NCBI GenBank assembly: GCA_023954715.1
Contig: JAGSHD010000001.1
Coordinates: 236,468 to 300,467, forward strand
From: Candidatus Cloacimonadota bacterium
Lineage (GTDB): Bacteria; Muiribacteriota; UBA6191
DNA length: 64,000 nucleotides
Reading direction: 5' to 3'
Position 1 is the stretch's first letter. The number at the start of each line of letters is the position of its first letter. Below the pieces are notes generated by a model that did no database searches, had not been told where the DNA came from, and saw nothing but the letters and a program-made list of their open reading frames with translations. Positions 17,384-39,720 of this stretch are shown here, piece by piece. Both the position numbers and the translations under genes were made by a program.

Positions 17384-18850
17384 ATGAACGAAACCAAACA
17401 ACCTAGCCTACTTATCTCCCTGACACCCGTCTGTTTTTTGATAATACTCTTAGTCTTTAATCAGCGTATATTTGAAGGTGATGCCACCTACGGCCCCAAT
17501 CAACTAGCTCTTTTATTATCTGGCATGCTCACTTTAGCCATTGGCTTTTTACACTTGAAGGTTCCGTATAAACAAGTAGAAAAAAATATTATTGAGTCCA
17601 TCAGTTTATCTCTTCAAGCTTGCTTAATACTTTTAGTTGTTGGCTCATTAATAGCAACTTGGATTTTATCTGGTATTGTCCCTACAATGATTTTTTATGG
17701 ATTAAAGATTATTAACCCTAGTTACTTTTTACCAGTTGCTTGTATCTCTTGTGCCATGGTTGCACTATCAACAGGATCGTCTTGGTCAACAACCGGTACC
17801 ATAGGAGTAGCACTCATGGGGATCGGCCAAGCACTCGGGATTCCAGTACCTATGTGTGCTGGAGCTATCATCTCGGGAGCTTATTTCGGAGATAAAATGT
17901 CTCCCTTATCTGACACAACTAATCTTGCTCCTGCTATGGCTGGAACAGATTTGTTTACCCATATACGACACATGTTATATACCTCTGGGCCGGCAATAGT
18001 AATTTCAATCATCGGTTTTTTTATACTTGGAATGTTTTACAAAGGGTCTGGAGCAAATTCAGATAATGTACAAGCTATCCTCAATGTGATTCAAAGTAAT
18101 TACAATATCGGACTTCATCTGTTTATTGTTCCAACTATTTTACTGGTATTGATTGCCAAAAAAATGCCAGCTTTTCCGGCACTTGTACTTGGAGCAGTTT
18201 TAGGTGCATTAGGAGCAATACTATTTCAGTCAGAGCTTTTAGCTAAAATCACGGGGCACGCTTTAGACATGGCAAATGTATATAAAGAGGTCATTAAAGT
18301 AGCTTTTTCTGGATTTAATTATGATTTTTCCAATGCTGTGGTAAACAAACTTTTTAATCGTGGTGGAATGCAAAATATGCTAGACACAGTGTGGCTCATT
18401 ATGATGGCCATGGTCTTTGGGGGAGCATTAGAAGGCACAGGGATGTTACAAAAAATAGCCAGTTCTGTTTTACAATTTGTCTCTGGTGCCGGAAGTTTAA
18501 TTGGAGCTACCTTAGGTACATGTTTATTTTTAAATATGACAGCTAGTGATCAATATTTGGCAATTGTAGTTCCAGGTAAAATGTTCAAAGGGGCTTATGA
18601 AGATATGGGTTTACATCCCAAAAACCTATCAAGAGCACTAGAAGACTCTGGTACTGTAACTTCGGTACTCATCCCATGGAACTCCGGTGGTGCATACAAC
18701 ACTAAAATATTAGGAGTTGGTCCAGATATGATTTATAGCTATCAAATATATTGTTTTTTTAATATATTAAGTCCTTTAATCTCACTCTTTTTAGGATCCA
18801 TGAACATAACCATTGAAAGAATCCACAATGAAAGAAAGTTGTCTCAATAA
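17384..18850 (+). CDS. nhaC: Na+/H+ antiporter NhaC family
   Basis: 488 aa with ~11-12 TM helices. N-terminal pattern (LLISLTPVCFLIILLVF..., GMLTLAIGF) and overall architecture are typical of the NhaC family. Confidence 0.7.
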   Translation: MNETKQPSLLISLTPVCFLIILLVFNQRIFEGDATYGPNQLALLLSGMLTLAIGFLHLKVPYKQVEKNIIESISLSLQACLILLVVGSLIATWILSGIVPTMIFYGLKIINPSYFLPVACISCAMVALSTGSSWSTTGTIGVALMGIGQALGIPVPMCAGAIISGAYFGDKMSPLSDTTNLAPAMAGTDLFTHIRHMLYTSGPAIVISIIGFFILGMFYKGSGANSDNVQAILNVIQSNYNIGLHLFIVPTILLVLIAKKMPAFPALVLGAVLGALGAILFQSELLAKITGHALDMANVYKEVIKVAFSGFNYDFSNAVVNKLFNRGGMQNMLDTVWLIMMAMVFGGALEGTGMLQKIASSVLQFVSGAGSLIGATLGTCLFLNMTASDQYLAIVVPGKMFKGAYEDMGLHPKNLSRALEDSGTVTSVLIPWNSGGAYNTKILGVGPDMIYSYQIYCFFNILSPLISLFLGSMNITIERIHNERKLSQ

Positions 18851-18857
18851 ATACCAA

Positions 18858-19907
18858 TGGATGGTTAGTCCAAAATTTGACCTATGTATATTTCTAGGTC
18901 CGGTATTTTTTGCTACACTTATTAGCCCAATCGCATATGCCTACTATCCAGATAGCATCCCTCTTTGGGCTTTTGTCTCCATTATTATCTTGTTTGACGT
19001 AGCTCACGTATGGGCTACCAATTATAAAGTATATTTTGACTCTGTTGAGATTAAAAGAAGACCATGGTTTTATCTCTTGCCTATACCTATCTTCTTTAGC
19101 CTATCTTTTGTACTTCTTTTATATTCAGAAAACCTCTATTGGACAATTTTGGCTTATGTAGCCGTGTTTCACTTTATCAAGCAACCTTGGGGTTTTGTAT
19201 CCATCTACAAAAGAAAGTTCAAAGAAAACTCAAAATTTGATCTACATTTTGATAAATACATGGTGTGGGCAGCTGGTCTATATCCTGTGTTTATATGGCA
19301 TAGTAGTCCCGCTAGAGTTTTTGATTGGTTTAACGCAGGAGAGAGTTTCATCGTTAAACTGCCCTATCAAATCATCCCCTATTTGATGTTTTTCTATGTG
19401 GCAGGGATCATCGTATATATCAGTCGACAAATCTATTTATATAAAAAAACATCAAAGATTAATTTACCTAAATTGATTTTAATGACTGCCATATATATCA
19501 CTTGGGCCGTAGGAATCTACATGACAAACCCCATTATCTCAGCCGCTTTTCTAAATTTGTTTCATGGAGTGCCATTTTTTGCAATCATCTGGATATACTC
19601 TAAAAACAAATATATAGACCAAGATTCAATCTACCCTAAACTATCTTTTATTTTTCAAAGAAAAACGATTTTTCTCTTTATAGCGATTGTTTTTATTCCG
19701 GCATTGATAGAAGAGTTTTTATGGGATCAGTTAATTTGGCATATTTATTTACCAAACACTAGTTTTATTGATCTTGGCTTTCAGTTAAAAGCACTTGTTA
19801 TTGCATTATTATCACTTCCACAAATTATTCATTATTGGCTTGATATGTTTATTTGGAAAATGGATGAAAACAAAAATCCAGATCTTAAAAAATATCTTTT
19901 GATTTAA
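18858..19907 (+). CDS. polytopic integral membrane protein, unknown function
   Basis: ~350 aa with >=8 hydrophobic helices. The start is uncertain (ORF track 18813; internal Met at 18858). Confidence 0.4.
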   Translation, partial: WMVSPKFDLCIFLGPVFFATLISPIAYAYYPDSIPLWAFVSIIILFDVAHVWATNYKVYFDSVEIKRRPWFYLLPIPIFFSLSFVLLLYSENLYWTILAYVAVFHFIKQPWGFVSIYKRKFKENSKFDLHFDKYMVWAAGLYPVFIWHSSPARVFDWFNAGESFIVKLPYQIIPYLMFFYVAGIIVYISRQIYLYKKTSKINLPKLILMTAIYITWAVGIYMTNPIISAAFLNLFHGVPFFAIIWIYSKNKYIDQDSIYPKLSFIFQRKTIFLFIAIVFIPALIEEFLWDQLIWHIYLPNTSFIDLGFQLKALVIALLSLPQIIHYWLDMFIWKMDENKNPDLKKYLLI

Positions 19908-20131: not shown

Positions 20132-21163
20132 ATGACACGACTATACACTCTTTTCTTATTCACCCTACTAATTCTAGTCAATCAATCTATTGCTGAGTCT
20201 GACATTTTCACCAGTTTTGATAATCGATATCAAGAAATCACCAATGAACCTGTTCAAAAAAATGTACAAATCCCAACAAGTAATGGAATAGCCGTCTTAG
20301 ATTTGAAATTGGCCCTTCTTTTACATCCCGCAATGAAAGATTATAACTTTACTATTCATAGTTTCATCAAACCCATACCTAAAAATTTAAATGTACCAAT
20401 CAACTTCTACCTAAAAAATAGGATCAAAGAGTCTAGTGAAATGGTACTGAAATCCAAAAAAACATATAAAGATTTACGACTTAAACAACTCGAAGTACAG
20501 CAAAAAATCTCTTCATTGATATATAATAAGTCCAGTAATATCCGTAAGATTATGTCCAGTAATCGAGGTGACACAGAAAGCCAACTAGAAAAGTTTCGTA
20601 GTGACTATCAAAAAAAGCTCAAAAGATACCAATTACAAAAGTTAAGTATCACCAAAGACATTGTAAATACTTTTGATACTTCTTATGGTATCCATTACAT
20701 GACCCGAACCGACCGTGATCGACTATTGAAAAAGATAGAGAAAGAGGTCTTACTTGCTGCTAAAAAAGTACTTAATTCTCAAAACTTATCTGTACTTCTA
20801 AATGGTAACTATCTAGAAGATGTAGCTCCTCAAACAATCTCCAAATTAGCATGGGTAGATAAAAATTTTACTGGGGTGAATGCTTTAAGTTTTTACTTTC
20901 AACGCCAACATCAAGTTATAGATGACGAAATACAATCGTACTCAGAACAGATCGGAGCTGACTTGTTTGATCCTTATTACAAAAACCTAAATAAAATCCC
21001 TGCGATTTTCGGTAAAAATTATAATGATCAATTTATTTTACTTGGTGGAAAAAACATAACAAAAGCAACCCTTCAAGTTTTATATCAAAAATATAACAAA
21101 TTAAATCTAATCAAAGACATTTTAAGTTTCGTTCAAAAAATAAAAGAGAATCAACATGAATAA
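20132..21163 (+). CDS. exported coiled-coil protein, possibly Skp/OmpH-like periplasmic chaperone; translationally coupled to the giant gene
   Basis: The ATG at 20132 follows a GGAG RBS. Signal peptide MTRLYTLFLFTLLILVNQSIA. Skp-like N-terminal block NGIAVLDLKLALLLHPAMK. Long K/Q/E-rich coiled coil. The stop TAA overlaps the next ATG (ATGAATAA). Confidence 0.5.
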   Translation: MTRLYTLFLFTLLILVNQSIAESDIFTSFDNRYQEITNEPVQKNVQIPTSNGIAVLDLKLALLLHPAMKDYNFTIHSFIKPIPKNLNVPINFYLKNRIKESSEMVLKSKKTYKDLRLKQLEVQQKISSLIYNKSSNIRKIMSSNRGDTESQLEKFRSDYQKKLKRYQLQKLSITKDIVNTFDTSYGIHYMTRTDRDRLLKKIEKEVLLAAKKVLNSQNLSVLLNGNYLEDVAPQTISKLAWVDKNFTGVNALSFYFQRQHQVIDDEIQSYSEQIGADLFDPYYKNLNKIPAIFGKNYNDQFILLGGKNITKATLQVLYQKYNKLNLIKDILSFVQKIKENQHE

Positions 21164-24100
21164 ACATATCCTATTTATCACTGTATTTTTTTATCTCGCA
21201 ATACAATGTAGTTATGCAGTCATTGGCAATAAAGACGATGCCATCAACCAAATTAAAATCAGAAACGGTGACGTTTATGTTTTAGTAAATCCCAACCTTG
21301 CTTCAGGCGTACCTACCTCGAGTGCTTATGGACTTTGGAGATTTTATCGTGGGAATGACTATCCTGATGATACAAAATATAAACGACAAAAAATGTCTAA
21401 GTTTCCTGTACCAAACAACACCAATAAATATTCTGGTTTAACAGTAGATAAGTTTGCTAAGGTTTACGTCTTTAAAGAAATTCCAGACGCGGGTCAGACT
21501 TCCTTGGTTACTCTTGGTAACACTCACCCTATTTTAGAAACTGGCACTTTTCCTGGTTTTGTAGATACAGATAATTCAAAGATGAAAGTAGGAACCGATT
21601 GCGCATCAGAAAGAGCTGTAAAAGGATCCCCTCCTGGTTGGGTTTATGTCATCACAGATGACGGAAATGAAGGTTGGGTAAAGTACTACGATACAACAAC
21701 TCATGGTAGCCTAGGAATGGTGGAAACACTCACTGAAAAACCAGGAGTTAAAAATGCTATTGATGGGCTAGGCGGAACGATTTTACCTCCTGCTTTTAAA
21801 TCTTCGGCTGCAAACTTTTATTATACAGCTCACGGAGGCTTTTGGACGGGTAGTGCATCAAACCCTACCCACGGAATAGAAATCGCTGGTGCTACTGGTA
21901 GCCCAGGAAGACCTGCTCCAAACCCAACCTTTTGTGGAAATCCTGGTAAAGCCAATGGTGATCCAAGATATCCTGAATGGGGATATAATAAATGGCCTGG
22001 ATCTCCTTGTGGATCTAAATTATATCCAAGTCTTGGAGCCTTTTTTATGACTCCTGCTAAGTCTACTCATGCCGCTGATGGTGGTAAGGGGACTAATGTT
22101 GCAGCCGTTCGAGTTTGTTCTGTAAGTAAAGAAGTACGTAAGTTATTCTTTGATAGATATATCGAAGGTACAGATCACGATATTTTAAAAGACTCTAAAC
22201 CTTTTTTGGGCTTGACCAATGATGATCTTTTTTCTGGTCCACCAAGTGGAGTTGGGGACGGTAAACTAATATCAGGGACAATCCCTGTTTCTGTATCAGT
22301 AGGTTCACTCACTCGATATGCCCGATTCAATCATTGTGGAGATATGTGTGGAGCACCAGGTCAAAGTTCACCTCCTATTCCAACAACTCCAGGTAAAGCA
22401 GTTGGAGCTATGTCATCCTTTGGTACTAAAGATAGTGAACAGCGAAAATACGTTTTAAAATCATCTAGCTCTGGTGGAAACCCCGAGACTTGGGTGATGC
22501 AAATTGATGGAAATGGTTCTACAGGTACCTTAGGTCGTACTCCATTAGTAAAAAGAGACGGTGGTGTTTTTGATTTTAATGGAGCTACTGGTATAGACTT
22601 TGACCCAGAAACAAGTGCACTTGGATCTAGATTTGCAGCCAGCGAGTATATTGGTTTTAGAGATACTGGGTCAGGAATTGGTCACATTTCAACAATTCAA
22701 GTTTCTAAAAGAGATGATACAAAGGATTGGGTATATACTTCTAACCCAGCTAACCCTCAATTTTTCAGAGTATCTGAAAGCTTTTGGGGAACAGGCGGAA
22801 TCCAGTGGATCTTAAAAAACCCAAATAATGCTACTATCGAGTGGTTACAAGTCAACCACGAAACCGGTATTGAAATTTCTAAAGATAGTATGGATGTTAA
22901 CAATGCCAATCCTATTGTAGCTTTTGGGGTGGATGGTGACGGTAAGGTTTATTGGCTAGAAAAATCTTTCCAAGAAAGTCTTGTCCAACTTACAGACACT
23001 CTAGGTGGAACCTCTCCTACATGGGAGAAAATCTCTAATTCTGGTAAATTAGTAGCTCCTACTGTTACTCCTGTGTTAACTCCGAGTGCCGGCGAATCTG
23101 GTGTACCCATTTTAGTAAAAATCTCAAGAGATAGTGGGCTTGGTCTCTTTAAATCAGCCATCGGTGTAACTACTCCATTTTTTATTGGTACCTTACCAAC
23201 TGGTGGCGTAATATGTGAGCGAACTTTCATCTCTGTTTCTGGTGATCCTACTAAAGCAGGATATTGGTCTGAAGCTGCGTGGAGTGGTCAATTTTGTGAT
23301 ACACCAGACAACACTTTAGCTGTTGATGTAGAAATGGCTGTAATCAACGTGGCTAACCCTCCATTATCTGAAGGGGATTTTGTTTTAGATATTGTTGATG
23401 TACCTGACATTTTAGAGGGACAAAAAGTAACTTTTTACATGGAAAACCCTCCTAGATTTAATGGGCAAAAAGCTCAACTAGCCGGAGCAGGAAGCAACAC
23501 TGCTTTTGCTCCATACAATTGCGCTCCGGATGCTGTACTACGATCTTTCTCAGAAAGTCCAGGTGCCTTTGATGGTTATGTTCGTATGGTATCTAACGAA
23601 AATGCTACAGGGTCAAGACCTGTATTAGACGAGTTAAAGCTTTTAACTGAAGTGCGAAACACTGGTGTTCAAACAAAATCAGGTACTGCTTGGACTTATG
23701 AAGACTCTGATGTAGTCATTGGACAAAACCTTCCTGCTTTTGTTTATGAAGATATTCCAAGCCCTCTGATCTCAAGCTCTGGTCCTTGTGCTGGAGGATT
23801 TCCTGTAAAAAAACTGGGAGTTAATAATAAAACACTTAGATATAGATGGATGGTAAAAGCTTTGACTCCTCCCATGAGTAAAAAAACAAATCATCCAAAG
23901 TTAACCGAGCTTGGTTTACCTAACCAATGTGATAACCCAACAACTGACCCAGCTTATGTTGAGCCAAAGTTAAAAGAAATTCCTGGTCTTATTTTCGCCA
24001 GTTGTTTTGAGGATGTCCCTCTTCACTCTGATCCTGCAATGGCAGCACTTGATCAAACAGAAGTCAAATCTCCAGATATCGAGTTTCCAGATCCTGGATC

Positions 24101-27100
24101 TTATGAAGTAATCTTAGAGTTAGTTGGATTAAGATGGGATGCAGATGGGCTAACCTTTGCGGATGACTCCACTGGTGTATCTTATGAAGTTACAAAAGCT
24201 GTAGCTAGCTACATTGTAAATGTTCATCCAATGCAAGCCCAGCTAGATGGTTCTGTAAGTGATGTACACATCATGAACAACTACGGATCATATACCTCTC
24301 CTGACTCTACTTGGGATGGTACTCCTTTAGTTGAAAATAGCGTTACTGGTAATGCAGCCCACCTTGAAGTAGTAGAAGGGTCTCCTTTTCCTATGGTTGC
24401 AGAAGTTACCATTGATTTTTTTAGAGCTCCAGATAAAGAGTATGCGAGTGACTCAACGGACAAAACCATGAAAAAGTATGATGGTGTTGGAGTCTGGGAT
24501 TACACTTATCCAGGAACAGTTCATGACAAAACAATGGTCCATCCTATGAACTTCGCTAGTGGCCCTACTGGATTACCTGGTGAAGTTGGAGAAGTAGACC
24601 AAGATGCCGGAAATGATGCCACAGCAAATTATGATACAAGTCCCGTACTTTCTCAAGCAGGAACAGTTCTTACCCCTATCTTTTATGACCCCAATGATAT
24701 ATCTCTATCTACTAAATTAAACCATATTCAAGGCACCTATAGTTTAGATCGTTACTACTCCCATGGTGTAGGAGGAGCAACACCTAACGGCCTAGAAAAT
24801 ACTTATGAGTCTATGTTTGATTGGTATGAAATAAAATACTATTGGTTTTACAGATACAAAGACCCAGTGTCCGGTCAAAAAACTGCTCCAAAATTATTTA
24901 GAAAAGGAAACTTATCTGAAATATGGGCAATACATAATTTAGCATCAGTAGCTGGTAAAGACTCCATCATGCCAAATGATATCCAAGATTCATCCAACTT
25001 CTGGAACGATGGTGAGTTGATTAAAGTCCTTGACCCAGATCGTCGTACCTATAAAGTTCGTATTCCGCTGTTTAAAAACCAGTTACTACTGGATGATGGC
25101 TCTCCTGTTGAAGACCGAGTTATGGATTGGACTAAATTAGGTAATCCAGACTTTTCTGCTCTTACTCCTGCCAATGTAGTAGCAGGTGGCGTCAATCGAG
25201 TGGATGCAAACTTAGGTTTATATGATTTTAAAGTTCCAAGTGAGCCTAGCTCTATCGAGTTTAGCTTTTATATTGACTACCCTATTGTTAAATGGTCAAA
25301 GCGAAACCAGCAAGGACATACTTTAGATGCTGATCATGTAAACGAAACCGTTTCTTCTGATATAGCAGCTGAACAAGGTACAACCGACAAAGCAACACTT
25401 TTAGCTAATATGGACCTAGATGCAACTTATTATGATTTGGTTCCTTGGGGACCACGTTCTGATGCTCTTGGTGGAAACAACTCTGATATGAACGATTCTA
25501 TCCGATCTTATAACAGTAATGATCCTAGACTTTTGGCAAACTCTGTATCTGGTTGGGGAAACATCGGTGCATATCGTACCAAAGGTGGACTCTACACAGC
25601 TACCGAAGCTAGCAGTGGAGGAATGAATGCTGATGGTAGCTACTCCAAAGATGATGGCACCGAAAACGATCATTGGTTTGATGTAATCGTATTGGATAAT
25701 ACCCCTCCTTCCATATCTTATGTAAACAATCTTGGAGATGAACCTTCAATGACAGGAGCTTTCTCCACATTTAGTTTTGAATCAAAAGTCGGAGGTATGT
25801 GGGATAGTAATGATGGAGTTGTAATTTCTGTAATGGATAACAACCCCTACCAGCACTGGTTAAACTACAAAGCATTTGATGCTGCTTCTCCAGAGATTGA
25901 GCCTTATAGTCCATATCTTCAACAATTTTACTATGATCTAGGACCAGATCCTAGAAACCTTCTCGGTTTAGGAGCAAAAGATAATGGCTCAACAGCACAA
26001 CCATGTGTTTGGGGGTATTCCATCTCTAATCCCCTATCTCCACTTAAAGCAGAAGCTGGCAATGGAGCTGGGTGGCTTAATCCTTTTGGACAAGAAGAAA
26101 ATCACTTTAACACCAATATCGTGACGCACCAGCAACCAGGATGTAGTTATCAGCACCCATTTACTTCTATGGCCTTTAGTGATCAAAGCTTCGTACGGCA
26201 TGATACTGGTACATTTAATCTTGCCAATATTTTAGATAGTGGTACAGTAAAGTTTACTCCACCAGCTACTCTTTTAAGTGGATCAATCTACGATGAAGGA
26301 GTGGTCGCTCCCGTAAATAATAGCTATTACTCAATACAATTTAAAACTAAAGTTGATAATGTATCTGGAATCCCTATCCCAACCGAGTATGGTGCTGAAG
26401 CGGGAGGAGAAATCAAGTTTATCGACAATCCTGGTAATTATCAAGCCATGGATGGCAGCTCAGTAAATATATCATTTCAAACTACTTCGTTTTTTGCTGG
26501 AAACTTTGATGCTACAGGAGACACGGGAGTTTTAACACCTCAAGAGACCTTTAGAGATCAAGCATATCGTACAGCTTTTTATTGGGTGCCAAAAGATGCA
26601 CTTATATCTCCATATTTCTTTGGTGCTAACTCTGGAGGACAAGAAACATATAAGGCCTATGCTAGAGCTTATGATATCTCTAGAAAACATGGTAGCTTAG
26701 CTCATCAAGGTTTAGCACGTGAAGACGTGGGTACTTCTTTAGGCACACTCGATCAAAGACCAAACTTAAAGGCTACTGAAATTGGGGACTATACTATCCA
26801 TGACAATAGAGAACCCAACATTAAAGTTACATTTTTCGATTACAAAATGAACTCATTATTCAAATTTATCATTTTAAATGATGCTAGCCACCATCATCAA
26901 CAGTCACAAGCTGGACTATTTAGTAAACACAGTATTTTACTTAAATCAAAAGATCCTCGAGATAGCTATTATTTAAAAGCTGGAGATCAAGCACAAGCAA
27001 CGATTTCATCTGGTAAATTAACAGTTACTAGTGACTATGATCTAGCAAATCCAAGCTCTGTTACTGGTCTTGCCGCTTATGGGACAGATGCTTCTGGTTT

Positions 27101-27476
27101 GGGTAACTTTCTTGTAAAGATTCCTGAAGATGTACGGTTTAGAATTAAAGCAGAAGCTGTAGACAATGTGACTTTACCGGCCAATCTCAATATCACTGTC
27201 GAAAGTGATATGACTGGATTTAGCCTTAATACTTCTCAAGGTGCTTTAGTACCTACAGAAGATCCCTTTGAAGCAAAAGTTACTACGGTTAGAGATTATC
27301 AATTTCAAGGGTTTACATCTAACTTTTGGCAGTACCCTAGACCTGGTAGATATGATGTAATTAAAATCACTGTTTCAGATGAGCAAGGTAATACTCGTAT
27401 GATTCGATTTCCAATTGAAATTATGCCACAAGACCTACACTTTAGAAAAATCGGTGATAACTCAAGAATTAAATAG
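21156..27476 (+). CDS. giant exported protein (2106 aa), unknown function; Gly/Thr/Ser/Asp/Pro/Trp-rich, non-repetitive
   Basis: 6.3-kb uninterrupted ORF in a stop-rich AT genome. Signal peptide MNKHILFITVFFYLAIQCSYA. No obvious internal tandem repeats or known catalytic motifs. Confidence 0.75.
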   Translation: MNKHILFITVFFYLAIQCSYAVIGNKDDAINQIKIRNGDVYVLVNPNLASGVPTSSAYGLWRFYRGNDYPDDTKYKRQKMSKFPVPNNTNKYSGLTVDKFAKVYVFKEIPDAGQTSLVTLGNTHPILETGTFPGFVDTDNSKMKVGTDCASERAVKGSPPGWVYVITDDGNEGWVKYYDTTTHGSLGMVETLTEKPGVKNAIDGLGGTILPPAFKSSAANFYYTAHGGFWTGSASNPTHGIEIAGATGSPGRPAPNPTFCGNPGKANGDPRYPEWGYNKWPGSPCGSKLYPSLGAFFMTPAKSTHAADGGKGTNVAAVRVCSVSKEVRKLFFDRYIEGTDHDILKDSKPFLGLTNDDLFSGPPSGVGDGKLISGTIPVSVSVGSLTRYARFNHCGDMCGAPGQSSPPIPTTPGKAVGAMSSFGTKDSEQRKYVLKSSSSGGNPETWVMQIDGNGSTGTLGRTPLVKRDGGVFDFNGATGIDFDPETSALGSRFAASEYIGFRDTGSGIGHISTIQVSKRDDTKDWVYTSNPANPQFFRVSESFWGTGGIQWILKNPNNATIEWLQVNHETGIEISKDSMDVNNANPIVAFGVDGDGKVYWLEKSFQESLVQLTDTLGGTSPTWEKISNSGKLVAPTVTPVLTPSAGESGVPILVKISRDSGLGLFKSAIGVTTPFFIGTLPTGGVICERTFISVSGDPTKAGYWSEAAWSGQFCDTPDNTLAVDVEMAVINVANPPLSEGDFVLDIVDVPDILEGQKVTFYMENPPRFNGQKAQLAGAGSNTAFAPYNCAPDAVLRSFSESPGAFDGYVRMVSNENATGSRPVLDELKLLTEVRNTGVQTKSGTAWTYEDSDVVIGQNLPAFVYEDIPSPLISSSGPCAGGFPVKKLGVNNKTLRYRWMVKALTPPMSKKTNHPKLTELGLPNQCDNPTTDPAYVEPKLKEIPGLIFASCFEDVPLHSDPAMAALDQTEVKSPDIEFPDPGSYEVILELVGLRWDADGLTFADDSTGVSYEVTKAVASYIVNVHPMQAQLDGSVSDVHIMNNYGSYTSPDSTWDGTPLVENSVTGNAAHLEVVEGSPFPMVAEVTIDFFRAPDKEYASDSTDKTMKKYDGVGVWDYTYPGTVHDKTMVHPMNFASGPTGLPGEVGEVDQDAGNDATANYDTSPVLSQAGTVLTPIFYDPNDISLSTKLNHIQGTYSLDRYYSHGVGGATPNGLENTYESMFDWYEIKYYWFYRYKDPVSGQKTAPKLFRKGNLSEIWAIHNLASVAGKDSIMPNDIQDSSNFWNDGELIKVLDPDRRTYKVRIPLFKNQLLLDDGSPVEDRVMDWTKLGNPDFSALTPANVVAGGVNRVDANLGLYDFKVPSEPSSIEFSFYIDYPIVKWSKRNQQGHTLDADHVNETVSSDIAAEQGTTDKATLLANMDLDATYYDLVPWGPRSDALGGNNSDMNDSIRSYNSNDPRLLANSVSGWGNIGAYRTKGGLYTATEASSGGMNADGSYSKDDGTENDHWFDVIVLDNTPPSISYVNNLGDEPSMTGAFSTFSFESKVGGMWDSNDGVVISVMDNNPYQHWLNYKAFDAASPEIEPYSPYLQQFYYDLGPDPRNLLGLGAKDNGSTAQPCVWGYSISNPLSPLKAEAGNGAGWLNPFGQEENHFNTNIVTHQQPGCSYQHPFTSMAFSDQSFVRHDTGTFNLANILDSGTVKFTPPATLLSGSIYDEGVVAPVNNSYYSIQFKTKVDNVSGIPIPTEYGAEAGGEIKFIDNPGNYQAMDGSSVNISFQTTSFFAGNFDATGDTGVLTPQETFRDQAYRTAFYWVPKDALISPYFFGANSGGQETYKAYARAYDISRKHGSLAHQGLAREDVGTSLGTLDQRPNLKATEIGDYTIHDNREPNIKVTFFDYKMNSLFKFIILNDASHHHQQSQAGLFSKHSILLKSKDPRDSYYLKAGDQAQATISSGKLTVTSDYDLANPSSVTGLAAYGTDASGLGNFLVKIPEDVRFRIKAEAVDNVTLPANLNITVESDMTGFSLNTSQGALVPTEDPFEAKVTTVRDYQFQGFTSNFWQYPRPGRYDVIKITVSDEQGNTRMIRFPIEIMPQDLHFRKIGDNSRIK

Positions 27477-27542
27477 TATACTGCGAGCTCTACTTGTCTA
27501 AGTAAAGCTCGCTTGTATCTATAACGCATACCATAATCAACA

Positions 27543-28439
27543 ATGAACATATTTTATAAAGAACCAATATATCGACCTCCTTCTGAGGCCAACTCTCTAT
27601 TAATCCATGCAACACTTGGCTGTCAATATGACTGCGATTTTTGTGGAATGTATACTTCAAAAAGATTTCAAGTCCGACCTGTTAAAGAGATTATAAAAGA
27701 CTTAGATGCTGCAAAACTTAACTACGGGTCCTCCGTCAGAAGAATTTTTCTTTTAGATGGAAATGCATTTGTCTGTCATCCTAAAGTATTACTACAAGTC
27801 GCTGAGCACGCTAATAAGATATTTCCAAATTTAAACCGAATCAGCGCCTATACACACGCCTCTGATGTACTCCGACGAAGCCCAGAGGACTTAAAAAAAT
27901 TATCCGATCACAAAATGAATATGTTGTATCTCGGAATAGAAACGGGAGACTCTGACCTACTTCATAAAATAAATAAAGAAACTGATAAAGAACAATTAAT
28001 AGAAGCTGCTCAAAAGTTACACCAAGCAGATATCAAAATGTCGGGTACTATCATGCTAGGTATAGCAGGAAATGATCCTAAAAAGTCTTTTCAACATGCC
28101 AAAGAAACTGCTGATTTGATCAATCAAATGAAACCTAGTATTAAAAAACCTTGGTATATTTCTGCATTAACTACCATGATCGCTCCAGATACAAAGCTTG
28201 AAAAAGACTTAAGTTTTAAATTGCAAAACACTATTGAGGTCTTACAAGAGTTAAAGACCCTCTTTATGTTTTTAAAGGATGACTTACACGGTCTAATATT
28301 TAGATCAAACCATGCATCCAACTATTTAAACTTACAAAGTAACGACTTATCCAAAAACAAAAATGATCTGTTAAGACAAATAGATTATGCCTTAGATCAT
28401 CCTGAGGTACTCAAAGCTGATTGGATGAGAGGGCTATAA
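27543..28439 (+). CDS. radical SAM domain protein
   Basis: CX3CX2C motif CQYDCDFCGMY near the N-terminus. LLDGNAF and GIETGD resemble the glycine-rich SAM-binding region of radical SAM enzymes. 298 aa. Confidence 0.7.
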   Translation: MNIFYKEPIYRPPSEANSLLIHATLGCQYDCDFCGMYTSKRFQVRPVKEIIKDLDAAKLNYGSSVRRIFLLDGNAFVCHPKVLLQVAEHANKIFPNLNRISAYTHASDVLRRSPEDLKKLSDHKMNMLYLGIETGDSDLLHKINKETDKEQLIEAAQKLHQADIKMSGTIMLGIAGNDPKKSFQHAKETADLINQMKPSIKKPWYISALTTMIAPDTKLEKDLSFKLQNTIEVLQELKTLFMFLKDDLHGLIFRSNHASNYLNLQSNDLSKNKNDLLRQIDYALDHPEVLKADWMRGL

Positions 28440-29216
28440 CTACTCTTTGACGTAGATCATAATTTTATTGTGAAGTTTTAATTTTTTCGCTGCATAATCA
28501 ATTATAATAAAAGCACAAGAACATATTTTCATTAAAAAGTCATCGTGATAATCCTTGTTTAATAACATAGAAAATAATATCACTTGCCCTTTGTTAGTCT
28601 CAACTTTCAACCTATCATTTTGAATCTGTATAACAAGATCTTTACTCTGGAAATTTGGCGTAGATTGTAGTTCATAAGACATTCCTAAGTCATTAAACAT
28701 ACTAATTAAAAGAGAAGCTTGTGTGTAATTTGCTAGGACTTGTTTTTTATTGTCCGTTTCAAGAAAACGATCAACCCATTTATTTGTGCAATAATCCGAA
28801 CAAATCAAGATAAAAAAGTCACACAAAACAAACTGATCCTCATGACTAAATTCATCAAAAAAATGTAGCTCTAACATATTAAGAGCATTTTTGGGATTAA
28901 CAACTTTTCTGCTATGTCCGCCGATCCAATGAAAATATGCGGTAGGATCTACAACACTTTCTTTTTTTAGTGGATTCCAACAAGTTACCATGTCGTTGCG
29001 GTTTTTCCAGTTACAAAAGATGCTTAATCTCGAGTCACTTATATCAATAGCTGGTATATAATCTTGTTGAACAACAATCACATTATAGTTATATGAGAAG
29101 TTTATTAGTCCCCGTGTTACCAGAATATCCTTGATTTGCTCAAATCGATCTTCATTCAAAATATGTCGTTTTCCTTTTAAAGTTAACATTACAATACCCA
29201 AAAAAAAAGAGCCCAA
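28440..29216 (-). CDS. hypothetical protein (probable start at internal Met, complement 29187..29189)
   Basis: Clean ORF convergent with the radical SAM gene, with stop codons abutting (28439/28440). No recognised domain. Confidence 0.4.
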   Translation of the reverse strand: MGSFFLGIVMLTLKGKRHILNEDRFEQIKDILVTRGLINFSYNYNVIVVQQDYIPAIDISDSRLSIFCNWKNRNDMVTCWNPLKKESVVDPTAYFHWIGGHSRKVVNPKNALNMLELHFFDEFSHEDQFVLCDFFILICSDYCTNKWVDRFLETDNKKQVLANYTQASLLISMFNDLGMSYELQSTPNFQSKDLVIQIQNDRLKVETNKGQVILFSMLLNKDYHDDFLMKICSCAFIIIDYAAKKLKLHNKIMIYVKE

Positions 29217-29250: not shown

Positions 29251-30198
29251 TTATACTCTGCGACGCTTATATTTAGCCATAGCTTCAGCTTCTTCTCGGT
29301 GTCTAGCATTTTCAATAGCACTAGATACTTGAGTAGAAACACCACTAACTAAGTTGATATCAGCATCAGAAAAAGGGACTTCTTTACGGGCAAGGATTAT
29401 TGCACCGTATACTTTTCCATTTTTCATCAGTGGTACGGACATTAATACAGACATGTCCTCACTGATCGTATCTTTTGAAGCATCGGTTTCATCAAATAAA
29501 TCTTTATAAGATATGATTGTTTGATCTTCTTCTAGTTTAGATATCAAATCTAGACCTAAAGTAAAGTCAATGGAGTTTCCATCATTGCTGATTACTTCTT
29601 CGTAAGAGCCAGATAAATCATTATAAACAATTAAACTACCATGAGTTACGCCTAAATTATTACAAAGACGGTTCATGATTTGATCGGATAAGGATACGAG
29701 AGATGCAGATTGAGAAATGATTTTCCCTGTATCGTATAAAACAACTAGCTCCATATTCGTTTTACGTAAACGACCAGATATAACATTGATAACAGAAAAC
29801 AACAATCTTGAAGCTACTTCTACGTCTGTCAAAACCAACTCTTGAAAAACTTCTCGTGAAATTTTAATCAAATAGCAATCATCTTGAGCAATAACAGCCG
29901 CAGATCTAGGAGCATTATCAAATAATGACATTTCTCCAAAGTATTCGTGGGAGTGTAAAGTTGCTAGAGGTTTAGCACGCTTGGTTTCTTCATCAATTAT
30001 TTTTGCAATCATAACTGATCCAGAAACTACAATATATAAAGCCCCGCCATCATCATCACCTTCATTGATAATGACATCTCCTTCAACAAAATGCTCAATC
30101 TGAGCACGATTCATCAAAGAAGCTAATTTATGAGGAAACTCTTCAAAGGCATGAAAAACAGGTATTTTTAAAACATCTCTTAGGGTGATTTGCATCAT
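29251..30198 (-). CDS. cyclic-nucleotide-binding domain protein (cNMP-binding + C-terminal GAF-like region)
   Basis: cNMP-binding core FGEMSLFDNAPRSAAVIA with the preceding beta-roll. A GGAG RBS overlaps the stop of pilT (TAATGGAGAAATG). Confidence 0.65.
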   Translation of the reverse strand: MMQITLRDVLKIPVFHAFEEFPHKLASLMNRAQIEHFVEGDVIINEGDDDGGALYIVVSGSVMIAKIIDEETKRAKPLATLHSHEYFGEMSLFDNAPRSAAVIAQDDCYLIKISREVFQELVLTDVEVASRLLFSVINVISGRLRKTNMELVVLYDTGKIISQSASLVSLSDQIMNRLCNNLGVTHGSLIVYNDLSGSYEEVISNDGNSIDFTLGLDLISKLEEDQTIISYKDLFDETDASKDTISEDMSVLMSVPLMKNGKVYGAIILARKEVPFSDADINLVSGVSTQVSSAIENARHREEAEAMAKYKRRRV

Positions 30199-30209
30199 TT
30201 CTCCATTAA

Positions 30210-31517
30210 TTAAATATTAGGTTTAATATTTTCACGATATATAGCTTTAGCGATAGCATCTTCATAAGTAATGATATTTTGATGATATAAACTATTTAAA
30301 CAAGCATCCATAGAAATCATTCCTAGTTTAGTCCCTGTTTGAATCGCTGAATTTATTTGATAAGTTTTACCTTCCCGAATCAAGTTGGCAATAGCACTTG
30401 TTACAAGTAAAATCTCTCTAGCTGCCACTCGGCCACCACCAATTTTAGGGATCAATTGCTGAGAAATAATCCCCCGTAAAGTCGTTGAGAGTTGAGCTCG
30501 AATCTGATCTTGCTGGAAAGAAGGAAAAACATCTACAATTCTATCTACAGTTTGTGCCGCATCTTGTGTATGTAATGTTGATAAAACCATGTGACCCGTC
30601 TCAGCAGCTGATATAGCAGCACTAATGGTCTCTAAATCTCTCATCTCTCCCACTAAAATTGTATCTGGATCTTGTCTCAAAACATATCTTAGAGCTACAG
30701 TAAAAGACTCTGTATCAGTTTTTAACTCTCGTTGATCAACGATACAGTTTTTATGTTTGTGCACGTACTCAATAGGGTCTTCAACGGTAATAATATGACC
30801 ATGTTTCTTTTCGTTAATCAAATCAACCATCGCCGCCAAAGTTGAGGATTTACCTGAACCAGTTGGACCTGTAACCAAAACTAATCCTCTAGGCAATAAA
30901 GCTAAAGATTCGATCGGCTTACTTAAACCAAGCTCTTTAAAAGTAGGGATGCTCTCTGTAATTGCTCTAAATGCAGCACTTACACATCTTTTTTGACGAT
31001 AAACATTAACTCTGTATCTAGCAATACCAGGTACAGATAAAGATAAATCTAACTCATGGGTTGCTTCGTACTCTGCTATTTGGTCCTGCCGCAAGATGGA
31101 ATAAACCATCTTTTTAACCATATCACTGTTTAAAATTGGGAACTTATCTCTTTCAATCTTACCGTTAACTCTAAACATTGGAGGTAAACCAACTGAAAAG
31201 ATAATATCAGAACTTCCTCTGTCTTTACTTCTTGCAAGACATTTAAACATTTCTTCTTGAGAGGTTCCGAACCCTTGTGGGCTCTTAGATACTTCTTGTT
31301 GAGGGTTGCCTGAACTTTGAGAAGATACTGCTTGTGGTGGAGCACTTGTTGGTGCTGCAGCTTGAGGCCGTTGAGTTTGCTGAGGTCTTTGAGCTTGTGG
31401 TGCTGCTGTACCGGTCGGTCTGGCAACTCTTTGCTCTGGACGAGCCTGTCTTTGCTGATTTTGCTCTGCATTTGGATTTGGTTTACTTTTTCCGAGTCTG
31501 GGCAAACTGATAGCCAT
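30210..31517 (-). CDS. pilT: type IV pilus retraction ATPase PilT family, with ~95-aa Gln/Pro/Ala-rich N-terminal extension
   Basis: Walker A VLVTGPTGSGKSST. GEMRD, HTQDA and other PilT/PilU signatures. The preferred start is the ATG at complement(31515..31517), preceded by AAGGAGAGAGAT. The extension sequence is ...QRQARPEQRVARPTGTAAPQAQRPQQTQRPQAAAPTSAPPQAVSSQ.... Confidence 0.85.
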   Translation of the reverse strand: MAISLPRLGKSKPNPNAEQNQQRQARPEQRVARPTGTAAPQAQRPQQTQRPQAAAPTSAPPQAVSSQSSGNPQQEVSKSPQGFGTSQEEMFKCLARSKDRGSSDIIFSVGLPPMFRVNGKIERDKFPILNSDMVKKMVYSILRQDQIAEYEATHELDLSLSVPGIARYRVNVYRQKRCVSAAFRAITESIPTFKELGLSKPIESLALLPRGLVLVTGPTGSGKSSTLAAMVDLINEKKHGHIITVEDPIEYVHKHKNCIVDQRELKTDTESFTVALRYVLRQDPDTILVGEMRDLETISAAISAAETGHMVLSTLHTQDAAQTVDRIVDVFPSFQQDQIRAQLSTTLRGIISQQLIPKIGGGRVAAREILLVTSAIANLIREGKTYQINSAIQTGTKLGMISMDACLNSLYHQNIITYEDAIAKAIYRENIKPNI

Positions 31518-31785
31518 ATCTCTCTCCTTTTGATTCATTATCGGTCTTACCTAAACACACATTTAGCAGATACAGAAACTAAACTTGCTAAATTCTGGAA
31601 TCAAAAATCTTGTGATAAAGATAAGTAGTTCAAAATGGTATCAAATTAATCCATAAAAAGAAATTCGATTGACGGCTATTAAGTGCTTTGTTACACTTCC
31701 CGATTCAAAAAATATAACAATATAAATAATAAATAAATAATTTAACAACAATTAAAACATTCACTTGAATGTCTGGAGCTAACAA

Positions 31786-33345
31786 ATGAAAAACTTATTA
31801 AAAGGTTTAGCAGTATCAGCTTGTATCGCAGGTCTATCCACAAATATATACGCAGGAACATTTTCTGACGTTCCTCAAGGACATTGGTCTTACAAAGCTG
31901 TTGAAGAAGTATCAGCTAAAGGTATCATCAAAGGATACAAAGAAAAATTTGGTGGAGAACGAAACGTTTCTCGATACGAAATGGCATTAATCGTTTCTAG
32001 ATTATTGAATGCAGTATCAAAGGGAGCAACAGTTCCTGCTGGAGCAAACGCTGACTTAGTAGAGTTAGTTCAAGAGTTTGGTAACGAACTTGCTTTAATG
32101 GGCGCTAAAGTTGATGTAGTTGCTGCAAAAGCTGACAAAAACGAAAAAAGAATCGAAGCACTTGAGTCTTCATCATCAAATATTGGTGTTGGTGGAATCA
32201 AAATGAAAGGTTACATGGGCTTAAGATGGCAAGGTCATTTTGCTGATGGAATGTCAGATGTAGTAAGCAGTGATCCTCAAGCTAAAATTGATTTAGGTTT
32301 CTCTGGAAAGTTAAACGATAAATCTAACTGGGGTATCAACTTCGGAACTGGATCTACTCAAAAGCCTAACTCATCATGGACTACATTTGGTGGATCATCT
32401 GCTTTTGGTAAGACTGATTTCAACCTAACTAAATTCTTTTTTGATTACCAAGCAACAGATGATTTAAAATTTGTAGTTGGAAAGCAAGATAATCCTTTCA
32501 AAAACACTGAACTTGTATTTGATGCAGACGTTAAGCCTGCTGGTATCAGTGAAAGCTACAAAATCAATGATAAGTGGTCTGTATCTGCTGGACAATACTT
32601 TGTAAAAGAAGGTTATGCTAATGGTACTGGTGGAACTGGTGTTGCTGCAGCTGCTGGAGCAAAACTAGGACAAGAAGACGTTGGTTTATTTGCTCACGGT
32701 GTTAGCTTTAACGATAAGCGTGGAAACAGCGCATGGACAGTTAATGCTAGTAACTTAAACTTTACTGGAGAGCAATACTTACATCCAGCTCAAACCGGTG
32801 GTGAAGGCGTAATTAATAGAATCGCTTCTGCAACAGGAACTACTTTTGCTGATTCTAACTCTGCAAGATCTGGTAACTATTATAACCAAGATGCAACAGG
32901 TGCTGCTCATACTCGAAATGCAACTACTGCAAACAGAGCAAATAGATTATTATCTGATTTCAACTTGTTCAACATCTTCATCGGATGGGAAAATCAAGCT
33001 AATGCGAATGACCCATGGGGTGTTAAGTTGGATTACGTTGTAAACAACTCAGCATGGAATGGCGATGATTCTGGACTTTGGTTCGAAATCTACAGAGGTC
33101 GATTATCTCAAAAAGGTGACGTAAGATACGGTTACCAGTACAAGCGTGTTGAAGCTGACGCTACTCTTGCTTGGATGAACGAAGATCAACTAGGAACAAA
33201 CGTTAAAGGTTCTGCAGTTTATGTACAAAATAGACTACGTGACAACATTGACTGGGTTACAACATATTTCTTGTTTGAGCCAGTACATGGTGTAAGCACA
33301 GATAAGTCTGGATTCTTACGAACTGGATTTGCTTTAACATTCTAA
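31786..33345 (+). CDS. SLH-domain outer-membrane protein (N-terminal SLH + coiled-coil linker + C-terminal beta-barrel; OmpM/Slp-like)
   Basis: Signal peptide. SLH motif FSDVPQGHWSYKAVEEVSAKGIIKGY...VSRYEMALIVSRLL. Coiled-coil ADKNEKRIEALESS. Gly/aromatic-rich amphipathic strands ending ...LRTGFALTF (OMP beta-signal). Confidence 0.7.
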   Translation: MKNLLKGLAVSACIAGLSTNIYAGTFSDVPQGHWSYKAVEEVSAKGIIKGYKEKFGGERNVSRYEMALIVSRLLNAVSKGATVPAGANADLVELVQEFGNELALMGAKVDVVAAKADKNEKRIEALESSSSNIGVGGIKMKGYMGLRWQGHFADGMSDVVSSDPQAKIDLGFSGKLNDKSNWGINFGTGSTQKPNSSWTTFGGSSAFGKTDFNLTKFFFDYQATDDLKFVVGKQDNPFKNTELVFDADVKPAGISESYKINDKWSVSAGQYFVKEGYANGTGGTGVAAAAGAKLGQEDVGLFAHGVSFNDKRGNSAWTVNASNLNFTGEQYLHPAQTGGEGVINRIASATGTTFADSNSARSGNYYNQDATGAAHTRNATTANRANRLLSDFNLFNIFIGWENQANANDPWGVKLDYVVNNSAWNGDDSGLWFEIYRGRLSQKGDVRYGYQYKRVEADATLAWMNEDQLGTNVKGSAVYVQNRLRDNIDWVTTYFLFEPVHGVSTDKSGFLRTGFALTF

Positions 33346-39656: not shown

Positions 39657-39720
39657 GATCTTTCCTCTATATAATAAGAAGAGGAGGAAAGTTTTAAGAA
39701 TTTGAGTTTTATAAACCCAT

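What the first reader, a model, noticed from the sequence alone, without database searches (positions are those of the whole stretch)
20132..28439. Coupled operon: Skp-like exported coiled-coil protein, 2106-aa giant exported protein, then a radical SAM enzyme
The secreted coiled-coil protein (20132..21163) ends inside the start of the giant ORF (ATGAATAA), which implies translational coupling. The giant protein (21156..27476) has a signal peptide and is rich in Gly/Thr/Ser/Asp/Pro/Trp, with no obvious internal repeats or catalytic motifs. A 6.3-kb uninterrupted frame in a stop-rich AT genome is strongly protein-coding. Sixty-six nt downstream lies a radical SAM enzyme (CQYDCDFC), after an imperfect hairpin (27490..27520, gcgagctcta...taaagctcgc) that lacks a T-run. 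The radical SAM gene's stop abuts a convergent hypothetical gene (28439/28440). The arrangement suggests a dedicated chaperone, surface or secreted cargo, and a possible modifying enzyme. None of it is assignable to a known system from sequence alone.
Basis: partly seen in the sequence, partly recalled or inferred. Interest (0 to 1): 0.6.

Follow-up and report, generated by a model that had tools for sequence, protein, structure and literature searches.

The report
Skp-like chaperone coupled to giant exoprotein
A rare, uncharacterised two-gene module from an uncultured marine bacterium (candidate phylum UBP17) pairs a divergent Skp-type periplasmic chaperone with a 2106-residue exported protein of no known family; the neighbouring radical SAM gene is a widespread enzyme that sits there only in this lineage.

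Summary
The three ORFs, the ATGAATAA overlap, both signal peptides, the CxxxCxxC motif and the intergenic hairpin are all present.

**Conserved unit: two genes, not three.** In all 12 complete modules tabulated from related contigs, the ~2100-aa giant lies next to one or two homologues of the 343-aa protein, with 1-8 nt overlaps. The giant and the accessory have diversified together (r = 0.93).

**Accessory protein.** It is a divergent OmpH/Skp relative with a ~70-90-aa insertion. Removing that insertion in silico lifts two relatives above Pfam's OmpH threshold.

**Giant.** It has no Pfam, NCBIfam or PDB sequence match and no internal repeats. Only 34 relatives were found among 1.84 billion representative proteins. 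Its C-terminal half models as a chain of Ig-like β-sandwiches plus an α/β region, with no β-barrel.

**Radical SAM gene.** It belongs to a family of more than 7000 members, with ~50% identical copies in Asgard archaea and Vampirovibrionia. Five other genomic contexts lack the giant, and most giant loci lack the radical SAM gene.

**Best reading:** a dedicated periplasmic holdase plus a giant cell-envelope or surface client. Function is unknown. This is a new variant of a known kind.

The parts
20132..21163 (+). Skp/OmpH-like accessory gene (343 aa). Signal peptide aa 1-21. First beta-strand motif GIAVLDLKLALLLHPAM at aa 52-68. Coiled-coil arm at about aa 95-215. Strand NLSVLLNGN at aa 218-226. 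Insertion at about aa 229-299. OmpH-like C-terminal motif LLGGKNITKATLQVLY at aa 303-318.
   Evidence: family alignment A2; invariant L63, P66, T310, L314. (OmpH is the top Pfam hit in relatives, below threshold). (excising the insertion gives 36.1 and 33.2 bits against a gathering threshold of 32.4, matched through to profile position 141/141).
21156..21163 (+). 8-nt overlap ATGAATAA: the giant's start codon lies inside the accessory gene's last codons. An AAGAG Shine-Dalgarno-like element sits 8-12 nt upstream, within the accessory coding sequence.
   Evidence: Equivalent 1-8 nt overlaps occur in every related module.
21156..27476 (+). Giant exported protein, 2106 aa, non-repetitive, clade A of a rare superfamily.
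21243..21284 (+). Conserved N-terminal motif INQIKIRNGDVYVL (aa 30-43), directly after the signal peptide. 'RNGDVYVL' is shared by all three giant clades.
22329..22352 (+). Conserved NHCGDMCG (CxxxC) motif, aa 392-399. C394, D396, C398 and G399 are invariant in the 8-sequence alignment; C394 is at least 90% conserved across 24 sequences.
   Evidence: Its function is unknown (disulfide or metal site is my inference).
26766..27458 (+). C-terminal ~230 aa (aa 1871-2101): two to three Ig-like beta-sandwich domains ending in the universal ...IPIEI..Q.VHFR.LG motif. This is the block most conserved in distant relatives.
   Evidence: profile positions 1885-2120 hit at E 1e-10 to 1e-25 in distant giants. 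(pLDDT 75-92 here). (Ig-like/PKD/FN3 matches only)..
27483..27512 (+). Stable intergenic stem-loop between the giant and the radical SAM gene. It has no T-run. Possible partial terminator or 3' mRNA stabiliser (inference).
   Evidence: It is absent in NORP72, where the two genes overlap by 4 nt.
27543..28439 (+). Radical SAM enzyme, 298 aa, CxxxCxxC at aa 27-34, no B12-binding and no SPASM domain. It is a lineage-specific neighbour and not part of the conserved module.

Best explanation
The functional unit is a two-gene module. The first gene encodes a divergent Skp/OmpH-type periplasmic chaperone. The second, translationally coupled gene encodes its dedicated client, a 2106-aa Sec-exported, non-repetitive multidomain protein.

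Proposed mechanism (inferred, not shown):
1. Ribosomes finishing the chaperone gene re-initiate on the giant's ATG, which lies inside the chaperone's last codons. The client is therefore made only alongside its chaperone.
2. Both proteins are exported through Sec and their signal peptides are cleaved by signal peptidase I.
3. The Skp-like protein, presumably a trimer with helical arms, holds the emerging giant in the periplasm of this LPS-containing diderm. This prevents aggregation or premature folding.
4. The giant then reaches its final place in the envelope or on the cell surface. There its Ig-like beta-sandwich C-terminal half would act as a structural or adhesive array.

The radical SAM gene is probably co-transcribed in this lineage but is not a component of the system.
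For: Shown:
- Genes and overlap are present.
- HMM scans of 19 sequences (the window and 18 loci) find a Skp-like gene next to every complete giant except in L013, and in L017 the pair lies ~2.5 kb upstream behind an intervening gene. Adjacent pairs overlap by 1-8 nt.
- There are three giant clades, each with its own accessory clade. Pairwise similarity of giants against that of their accessories gives r = 0.93, with 0 of 2000 Mantel permutations as high. The pair has therefore duplicated and diverged as a unit.
- OmpH (PF03938) is the top Pfam hit for 5 of 10 relatives (E 6e-5 to 8e-3) and hits 7 of 14 at E <= 10.
- After in-silico excision of the ~70-90-aa insertion, two relatives exceed the gathering score (36.1 and 33.2 against 32.4 bits). 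The match then runs to the end of the profile, showing that the C-terminal 'GGxDxTxxxLxxLY' corresponds to the OmpH C-terminus.
- The window protein is homologous to those relatives (E 1e-28).
- The envelope is diderm: LpxK and an SLH-porin are in the window.
- Radical SAM exclusion: and the loci.
Against: - The window's own 343-aa protein gives no OmpH hit, either native or with the insertion excised.
- All native relatives score below Pfam's threshold. The family profile finds no Skp chain in the PDB at E <= 10. hhalign against E. coli Skp is non-significant.
- Coiled-coil composition can inflate such matches.
- Nothing shows binding, trimerisation, or where the giant ends up. No outer-membrane export route is identified.
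- The giant is more strongly conserved than its accessory and is non-repetitive, which is unlike typical adhesins.
- The N-terminal half could not be modelled (pLDDT 32.7).
Confidence: 0.6

Rival explanations
1. The Skp-like protein is not a transient chaperone. It is a permanent structural subunit: a trimer that clamps the giant's conserved N-terminus. This is what SkpA does with the N-terminus of the 2400-aa SprA translocon in the type 9 secretion system. On this reading the giants (clades A, B and C, often encoded side by side) are parts of an envelope machine rather than cargo.
For: - Precedent: PMC10994853 (SkpA encapsulates and structures the SprA N-terminus, and SkpA has a C-terminal extension relative to E. 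coli Skp).
- All giants share 'RNGDVYVL' within ~10-20 residues of the signal-peptide cleavage site.
- The giants are non-repetitive and more conserved than their accessories.
- Clades A and B are usually divergent neighbours, and clade B has two different Skp-like genes.
- The pairing is 1:1 and paralogue-specific.
Against: - No sequence relationship to SprA/Sov (no Pfam, NCBIfam or PDB hit).
- The C-terminal half models as separate beta-sandwiches, not a barrel.
- No interaction was modelled or measured.
- A conserved N-terminus fits a chaperone-recognition or sorting signal equally well.
Confidence: 0.2
2. One reading: the radical SAM enzyme modifies the giant in the cytoplasm before export, and the Skp-like protein chaperones the modified product.
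For: - Same strand. There is a 66-nt gap with a hairpin but no T-run in the window, and a 4-nt overlap with the giant's stop codon in NORP72. Co-transcription in this lineage is therefore likely.
- Clade-C modules carry a different redox enzyme, a dihaem CCP/MauG-like gene, coupled to their Skp-like gene. A recurrent theme of 'giant plus oxidative or radical enzyme' cannot be excluded.
Against: - The radical SAM gene is absent from giant loci L003-L007 and L011-L018.
- 7058 homologues score E <= 1e-10. The 45-54% identical ones come from Vampirovibrionia, Gastranaerophilaceae, Lokiarchaeum and Promethearchaeota.
- Five contexts were examined (L008, L009, L019, L021, L022) and none has a giant or a Skp-like gene.
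- There is no SPASM or peptide-recognition domain and only four Cys residues.
Confidence: 0.07
3. The 343-aa protein is an unrelated exported coiled-coil protein, for example a structural spacer or a co-polymerising partner. The OmpH similarity is compositional, and the pair forms a periplasmic or surface scaffold.
For: - All native OmpH scores are below threshold, and the window protein gives none.
- The PDB profile search returns only generic coiled coils.
- At 285-376 aa the family is twice the size of Skp.
Against: - The OmpH matches are collinear and include the non-coiled-coil terminal strand and helix motifs.
- Scores rise above threshold, with full-length coverage, when the insertion is excised. 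Pure coiled-coil bias would not do that.
Confidence: 0.1

Closest known systems
Skp/OmpH periplasmic chaperone (Pfam PF03938; E. coli Skp)
   Same: - Sec-exported and of the right general build: an N-terminal beta-strand, a long helical arm, then a C-terminal strand and a D-x-T-x-x-x-L helix motif.
- Weak but collinear profile matches.
- Proposed holdase role for a beta-rich exported client.
   Different: - Twice the length, with a ~70-90-aa insertion before the last strand and a conserved LLLHPxM motif.
- Encoded 1:1 with, and translationally coupled to, a single giant client instead of sitting in the bamA-skp-lpxD housekeeping context.
- The window protein itself does not reach any OmpH score.
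SkpA-SprA of the type 9 secretion Extended Translocon (PMC10994853)
   Same: A Skp homologue with a C-terminal extension is functionally tied to one >2000-aa, non-repetitive, Sec-exported envelope protein, whose conserved N-terminus it binds.
   Different: - skpA is not encoded next to sprA according to that paper (it lies in a separate operon with skpB).
- The giant here shows no SprA/Sov sequence signature and no barrel in the modelled half.
- No T9SS components or T9SS C-terminal sorting domain (CTD) were detected in the window.
Dedicated-partner export systems for large exoproteins (two-partner secretion TpsA/TpsB; chaperone-usher)
   Same: A gene pair in which a helper is encoded next to, and is specific for, a large exported client.
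   Different: - No TPS domain (PF05860), no Omp85-type TpsB and no usher.
- The helper here is a soluble Skp-like protein, so the outer-membrane step remains unexplained.
Giant Ig-like-domain surface proteins and S-layer proteins (e.g. PrgB Ig-like region 8beg, SraP 4m00, Deinococcus HPI 8cka)
   Same: The C-terminal half is built from Ig-like, PKD or FN3-type beta-sandwiches. Domain ends carry DNxPP-type motifs, as in cadherin-like modules (seen directly in the sequence).
   Different: - No tandem sequence repeats, no recognised Pfam Ig-like domain, and high conservation along the whole length.
- No LPXTG, RTX, autotransporter or T9SS sorting signal.
Stand-alone ~300-aa radical SAM family (labelled 'B12-binding domain-containing radical SAM' or 'YgiQ' by the source databases)
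   Same: The window protein is a full-length member, 45-54% identical to hundreds of ~300-aa proteins.
   Different: - Despite the labels it has no B12-binding domain. It matches only the catalytic core of B12-radical SAM enzymes, far below their cut-offs.
- The function of the family is unknown.

Membership tests
OmpH/Skp (PF03938) | Profile score at or above Pfam's gathering threshold (32.4 bits) | tested here: inconclusive
   The window protein gives no hit. Native relatives score 16.9-23.6 bits, all below threshold. With the insertion excised, 2 of 8 pass (36.1 and 33.2 bits), one reaches 30.7, and the match runs to profile position 141/141.
OmpH/Skp (PF03938) | Sec signal peptide, soluble periplasmic protein in a diderm | tested here: met
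   An N-terminal hydrophobic segment ends ...SIA|ESD, with no lipobox Cys and no further hydrophobic segment. The window also encodes LpxK and an SLH-porin.
OmpH/Skp (PF03938) | 'Jellyfish' fold: a trimeric beta-body with alpha-helical hairpin arms | not testable with these tools
No multimer prediction tool is available.
Radical SAM superfamily (PF04055) | CxxxCxxC cluster motif and a profile score above threshold | tested here: met
   CQYDCDFC at aa 27-34. PF04055 scores 69.1 bits against a cut-off of 29.5.
B12-binding (class B) radical SAM methylases | N-terminal cobalamin-binding domain (PF02310) | tested here: not met
   The radical SAM core starts at residue 24 of 298, and there is no PF02310 hit. 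Matches to PhpK, HpnJ and BchE cover only their catalytic cores, at 52 bits or less against cut-offs of 360-750.
SPASM/twitch radical SAM peptide-modifying enzymes | C-terminal auxiliary Fe-S cluster domain rich in Cys | tested here: not met
   There are only four Cys residues (27, 31, 34, 78) and none in the C-terminal 220 aa. No SPASM family hit.
SprA/Sov T9SS translocon | SprA profile match (Pfam/NCBIfam SprA models) and a giant beta-barrel | tested here: not met
   Neither the window giant nor 23 relatives give a Pfam or NCBIfam hit. The profile search finds no SprA chain in the PDB at E <= 10. The C-terminal 1200 aa model as separate beta-sandwiches and helices. The N-terminal half was not modelled reliably.
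Autotransporter / type 5 secretion | C-terminal 12-strand beta-barrel translocator, or an N-terminal TPS domain | tested here: not met
   No Pfam hit. The last ~230 aa are confidently modelled Ig-like sandwiches. The C-terminus ends ...HFRKIGDNSRIK rather than in an aromatic beta-signal.
TamB/AsmA-like lipid-transport giants | C-terminal DUF490/TamB domain and a continuous beta-taco fold | tested here: not met
   No PF04357 or AsmA hits. The model shows discrete domains.
T9SS cargo | Type A or type B C-terminal sorting domain (NCBIfam T9SS C-terminal-domain models) | tested here: not met
   No NCBIfam hit at E <= 0.01. Caveat: the conserved C-terminal domain is an Ig-like sandwich, so an unrecognised analogous signal is not excluded.
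T1SS RTX/Bap-type giant adhesins | No Sec signal peptide; tandem repeats; C-terminal RTX secretion signal | tested here: not met
   A Sec signal peptide is present. There are no internal repeats and no RTX or other Pfam hits.

The most novel reading that the evidence does not exclude
The giants, in clades A, B and C that are usually encoded together, are subunits of a previously unseen cell-envelope apparatus of candidate phylum UBP17 and its relatives. Each carries its own paralogue-specific Skp-like partner or partners. In this apparatus Skp-derived trimers serve as built-in structural clamps on the giants' conserved N-termini. That would make it a second, independent case, after SkpA-SprA, of the Skp scaffold being repurposed. 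It might also include enzyme-made cross-links (MauG-like in clade C, radical SAM in this lineage).
Probability: 0.2. Interest if true: 0.75.

Novelty: new variant of a known kind. Interest (0 to 1): 0.55.

Why it matters
Skp is normally a single, general chaperone for outer-membrane proteins. Finding Skp-derived genes that are duplicated and hard-wired, one per giant client, would extend the recent evidence from the type 9 secretion system that the Skp scaffold has specialised roles.

The module also raises a concrete question: how does a 230-kDa folded or unfolded protein get through or into the outer membrane without any recognised secretion signal?

The giant itself is a large piece of 'dark' protein space. 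It has about 2100 residues, no known domain at sequence level, and only about three dozen relatives among 1.8 billion representative proteins. It is nonetheless strongly conserved across lineages with 29-52% GC, which argues for an important lineage-specific envelope function in deep-sea, particle-associated bacteria that have no cultured member.

Tried and rejected
- AlphaFold2 on giant aa 1-1150 with a 6-sequence alignment gave pLDDT 32.7. The model is unusable and was not fold-searched.
- The afdb50 fold library was not available.
- A profile of the giant family against PDB sequences returned nothing below E 0.77.
- Pfam on 24 giants at E <= 1 gave no family hit in more than one member. Pfam on 5 distant giants gave none.
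- The accessory-family profile against the PDB returned only generic coiled coils.
- Self-BLAST of the giant found no repeats.
- Tetranucleotide comparison was used to ask whether the radical SAM locus L009 and the giant locus L003, which come from the same sample, belong to one genome. The correlation was 0.78, no better than for unrelated loci, so this is inconclusive.
- The viral fold library gave only Ig-like matches.
- SprA-like barrel, autotransporter, TamB, TpsA, RTX adhesin and T9SS cargo were all considered and rejected (see the membership tests).
- The 364-aa multi-pass membrane protein upstream (18813..19907) was considered as part of the module and rejected. It is conserved only in NORP72 and absent from the other loci.

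Full report
**1. Observation**

The ORF map confirms four ORFs:
- 20132..21163 (+, 343 aa counted from the ATG)
- 21156..27476 (+, 2106 aa)
- 27543..28439 (+, 298 aa)
- a convergent ORF at 28440..29216 (-)

The giant's ATG lies inside the last codons of the upstream gene (ATGAATAA, 8-nt overlap). Both exported proteins begin with Sec-type signal peptides. The third protein carries CQYDCDFC and passes the Pfam radical SAM threshold (69.1 against 29.5 bits).

The giant's composition is G 9.5, S 8.5, D 7.5, T 7.4, P 6.7, W 1.7 %, and it has no internal repeats.

The intergenic hairpin lies at 27483..27512, about 7 nt from the stated coordinates. It is far more stable than shuffled sequence (-21.8 kcal/mol, z = -5.84) and has no T-run.

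**2. Source organism**

The giant is identical to a hypothetical protein of a MAG labelled 'Candidatus Cloacimonetes bacterium'. It is 68% identical to one from MAG NORP72.
- One study found NORP72 so divergent that it may belong to another phylum (bioRxiv 10.1101/2021.10.08.463351).
- Another study describes NORP72 as a close, genus-level relative of a MAG it assigns to GTDB phylum UBP17 (PMC9426571).

The window also encodes LpxK and an SLH-domain porin. The cell is therefore an LPS-containing diderm with a periplasm.

**3. What is conserved around the giant**

The word-indexed search of 5.8 billion proteins found only 7 giants.

A full HMMER profile search of 1.84 billion representatives found 34 proteins at E <= 1e-3. 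Among the full-length hits are a dozen very distant ones of 1500-2190 aa. Those that give more than scattered matches are collinear with the family profile.

Among 185,579 species-representative genomes, only 9 loci in 6 uncultured MAGs carry one.

I fetched the loci and scanned all their ORFs with HMMs of the giant and of the 343-aa family. The results:
- The giants fall into three clades.
- Clade A, which includes the window, has one accessory gene of 341-360 aa followed by the giant.
- Clade B has two accessory genes. The order is either ~285 aa, ~337 aa, then the giant, or 327 aa, the giant, then 287 aa.
- Clade C has the giant, then a ~300-aa accessory, then a dihaem CCP/MauG-like gene (L005 and L012).
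- Wherever the genes are adjacent, the junctions overlap by 1-8 nt, and a Shine-Dalgarno-like element usually sits inside the upstream gene.
- Two loci depart from strict adjacency. In L013 no accessory was detected in the 3.1 kb available upstream. In L017 the accessory pair lies 2.5 kb upstream, with another gene in between.
- Clades A and B are usually divergent neighbours.

Pairwise similarity of giants and of their adjacent accessories is tightly correlated (r = 0.93; 0 of 2000 Mantel permutations as high). The pair has therefore duplicated and diverged as a unit.

**4. The accessory protein**

- Pfam and NCBIfam give nothing for the window protein.
- Across 14 family members, OmpH (PF03938) is the most frequent Pfam hit. 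It is found in 7 of 14, with a best E of 6.4e-5.
- It is the top hit for 5 of 10 members scanned individually, always below the 32.4-bit threshold, and each match ends at profile position ~120 of 141.
- The family alignment shows four elements in order: an N-terminal strand motif (vGxVD..LLLHPxM), a long helical region, a strand (NLxxvLN), and, ~70-90 residues later, an invariant D-x-T-x-x-x-L motif.
- That last motif resembles the C-terminal DIT..VL of Skp, as I recall the E. coli sequence.
- As a test I excised the intervening segment in silico. OmpH scores rose to 36.1 and 33.2 bits in two members, above threshold, and to 30.7 bits in a third. The matches then extended to profile position 141/141.

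I conclude that the family is a divergent OmpH/Skp relative with an insertion.

The caveats are these:
- The window protein itself never scores.
- The PDB profile search and the hhalign comparison with E. coli Skp were not significant.
- I could not obtain a structure.

**5. The giant**

No Pfam, NCBIfam or PDB sequence match exists for it or for 23 relatives.

Conservation is high along the whole length. The most conserved elements are:
- 'RNGDVYVL', directly after the signal peptide
- an NHCGDMCG motif
- several DNxPP-type domain ends
- the last ~230 residues, ending ...IPIEI..Q.VHFR.LG

AlphaFold2 failed on the N-terminal half with 6 sequences (pLDDT 32.7). With 26 sequences it gave a usable model of residues 907-2106 (pLDDT 66.8, pTM 0.63).

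The modelled half contains no beta-barrel, no beta-taco and no autotransporter domain, and the sequence has no known sorting signal.

**6. The radical SAM gene**

- It has 7058 homologues at E <= 1e-10 among the candidates scored.
- The best 120 are nearly all ~300 aa long. The 45-54% identical ones include proteins from Vampirovibrionia, Gastranaerophilaceae, Lokiarchaeum and Promethearchaeota.
- Five other contexts (L008, L009, L019, L021, L022) contain neither a giant nor a Skp-like gene.
- No radical SAM homologue is found in the giant loci outside this lineage that were searched by tblastn (L003-L007). The ORFs flanking the giants in L011-L018 are also different.
- The protein lacks B12-binding and SPASM domains.
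- In NORP72 it overlaps the giant's stop codon by 4 nt, so co-transcription in this lineage is likely. It is nevertheless not a conserved part of the module.

**7. Mechanism**

Best-supported reading (confidence about 0.6): a dedicated Skp-type periplasmic holdase is produced in obligatory coupling with its giant Sec-exported client, and escorts it in the periplasm to an envelope or surface destination.

What is shown is the gene architecture, its conservation, the co-diversification, the OmpH relationship at family level, and the Ig-like C-terminal half. What is inferred is trimerisation, binding, localisation and function.

The main rival (about 0.2) takes its cue from the type 9 secretion Extended Translocon, where a SkpA trimer permanently encloses the N-terminus of the 2400-aa SprA (PMC10994853). 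Here the Skp-like protein could likewise be a fixed subunit clamped on the giants' universal N-terminal motif. The giants, being non-repetitive, strongly conserved and multi-paralogous, would then be parts of a machine.

The other two rivals are weaker: the radical SAM modification idea (about 0.07) and the 'unrelated coiled-coil' idea (about 0.1).

**8. Novelty and verdict**

The kind of system, a dedicated periplasmic chaperone encoded next to its large exported client, is known. This particular solution is not described in anything I could find. It consists of:
- an expanded Skp derivative hard-wired 1:1 to a 2100-aa protein
- a client from a family with no recognised domains
- three co-evolving paralogous sets, confined to a few uncultured marine lineages

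I rate it a new variant of a known kind, with moderate interest (0.55).

Noticed in passing
L005 321..8976; L012 11561..18215: Clade-C giant modules are followed by a Skp-like gene and then a dihaem cytochrome c peroxidase/MauG-like gene (two CxxCH motifs). In L012 that gene overlaps the Skp-like gene by 4 nt. A periplasmic protein-oxidising enzyme coupled to the module in two different lineages may point to post-translational chemistry on the giants.
   Followed up: partly
window 31786..33345 (+): A 519-aa protein with an N-terminal SLH domain and a Porin_5 barrel. This is an OmpM-like outer-membrane porin tethered to peptidoglycan, an envelope feature typical of deep-branching diderms.
   Followed up: no
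window 39719..39889 (-): Lysine riboswitch (80 bits, E 2.7e-19) ahead of an aspartokinase-dapB-dapA-dapD operon (38313..39737, 37651..38316, 36740..37654, 35962..36705). This is ordinary regulation.
   Followed up: yes
window 29251..31538 (-): A PilT/PilU-family ATPase with a ~95-aa N-terminal extension (442 aa) lies directly upstream, on the minus strand, of a cNMP-binding + GAF protein (315 aa). This may be a nucleotide-regulated pilus-retraction module. It is not conserved next to the giants elsewhere.
   Followed up: no
window 18813..19907 (+): A 364-aa multi-pass membrane protein with no family hit lies just upstream of the module. It is 73-75% identical in NORP72 and absent from the other giant loci.
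   Followed up: partly
L001 18765..26222 (-): In NORP72 the region downstream of the radical SAM gene holds an RHS/teneurin YD-shell protein (1730 aa) and another protein of more than 1890 aa. That genome is rich in giant proteins.
   Followed up: no
window 52299..56512 (+): A 904-aa Big_5 + DUF1800 protein is immediately followed by a 499-aa DUF1501 protein. DUF1800/DUF1501 is a recurrent pair of unknown function.
   Followed up: no
L008 6001..9689; L022 5001..8660: In two Asgard-type contigs the radical SAM orthologue is followed by a polyprenyl synthase, a ~240-aa protein and a TrmB-family regulator. This conserved context might hint at the family's real (isoprenoid-related?) role.
   Followed up: no
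window 21156..27476, aa 392-399: The NHCGDMCG motif (CxxxC flanked by His and Asp) is among the best-conserved sites in a protein otherwise poor in Cys. It may be a disulfide or a metal site.
   Followed up: no
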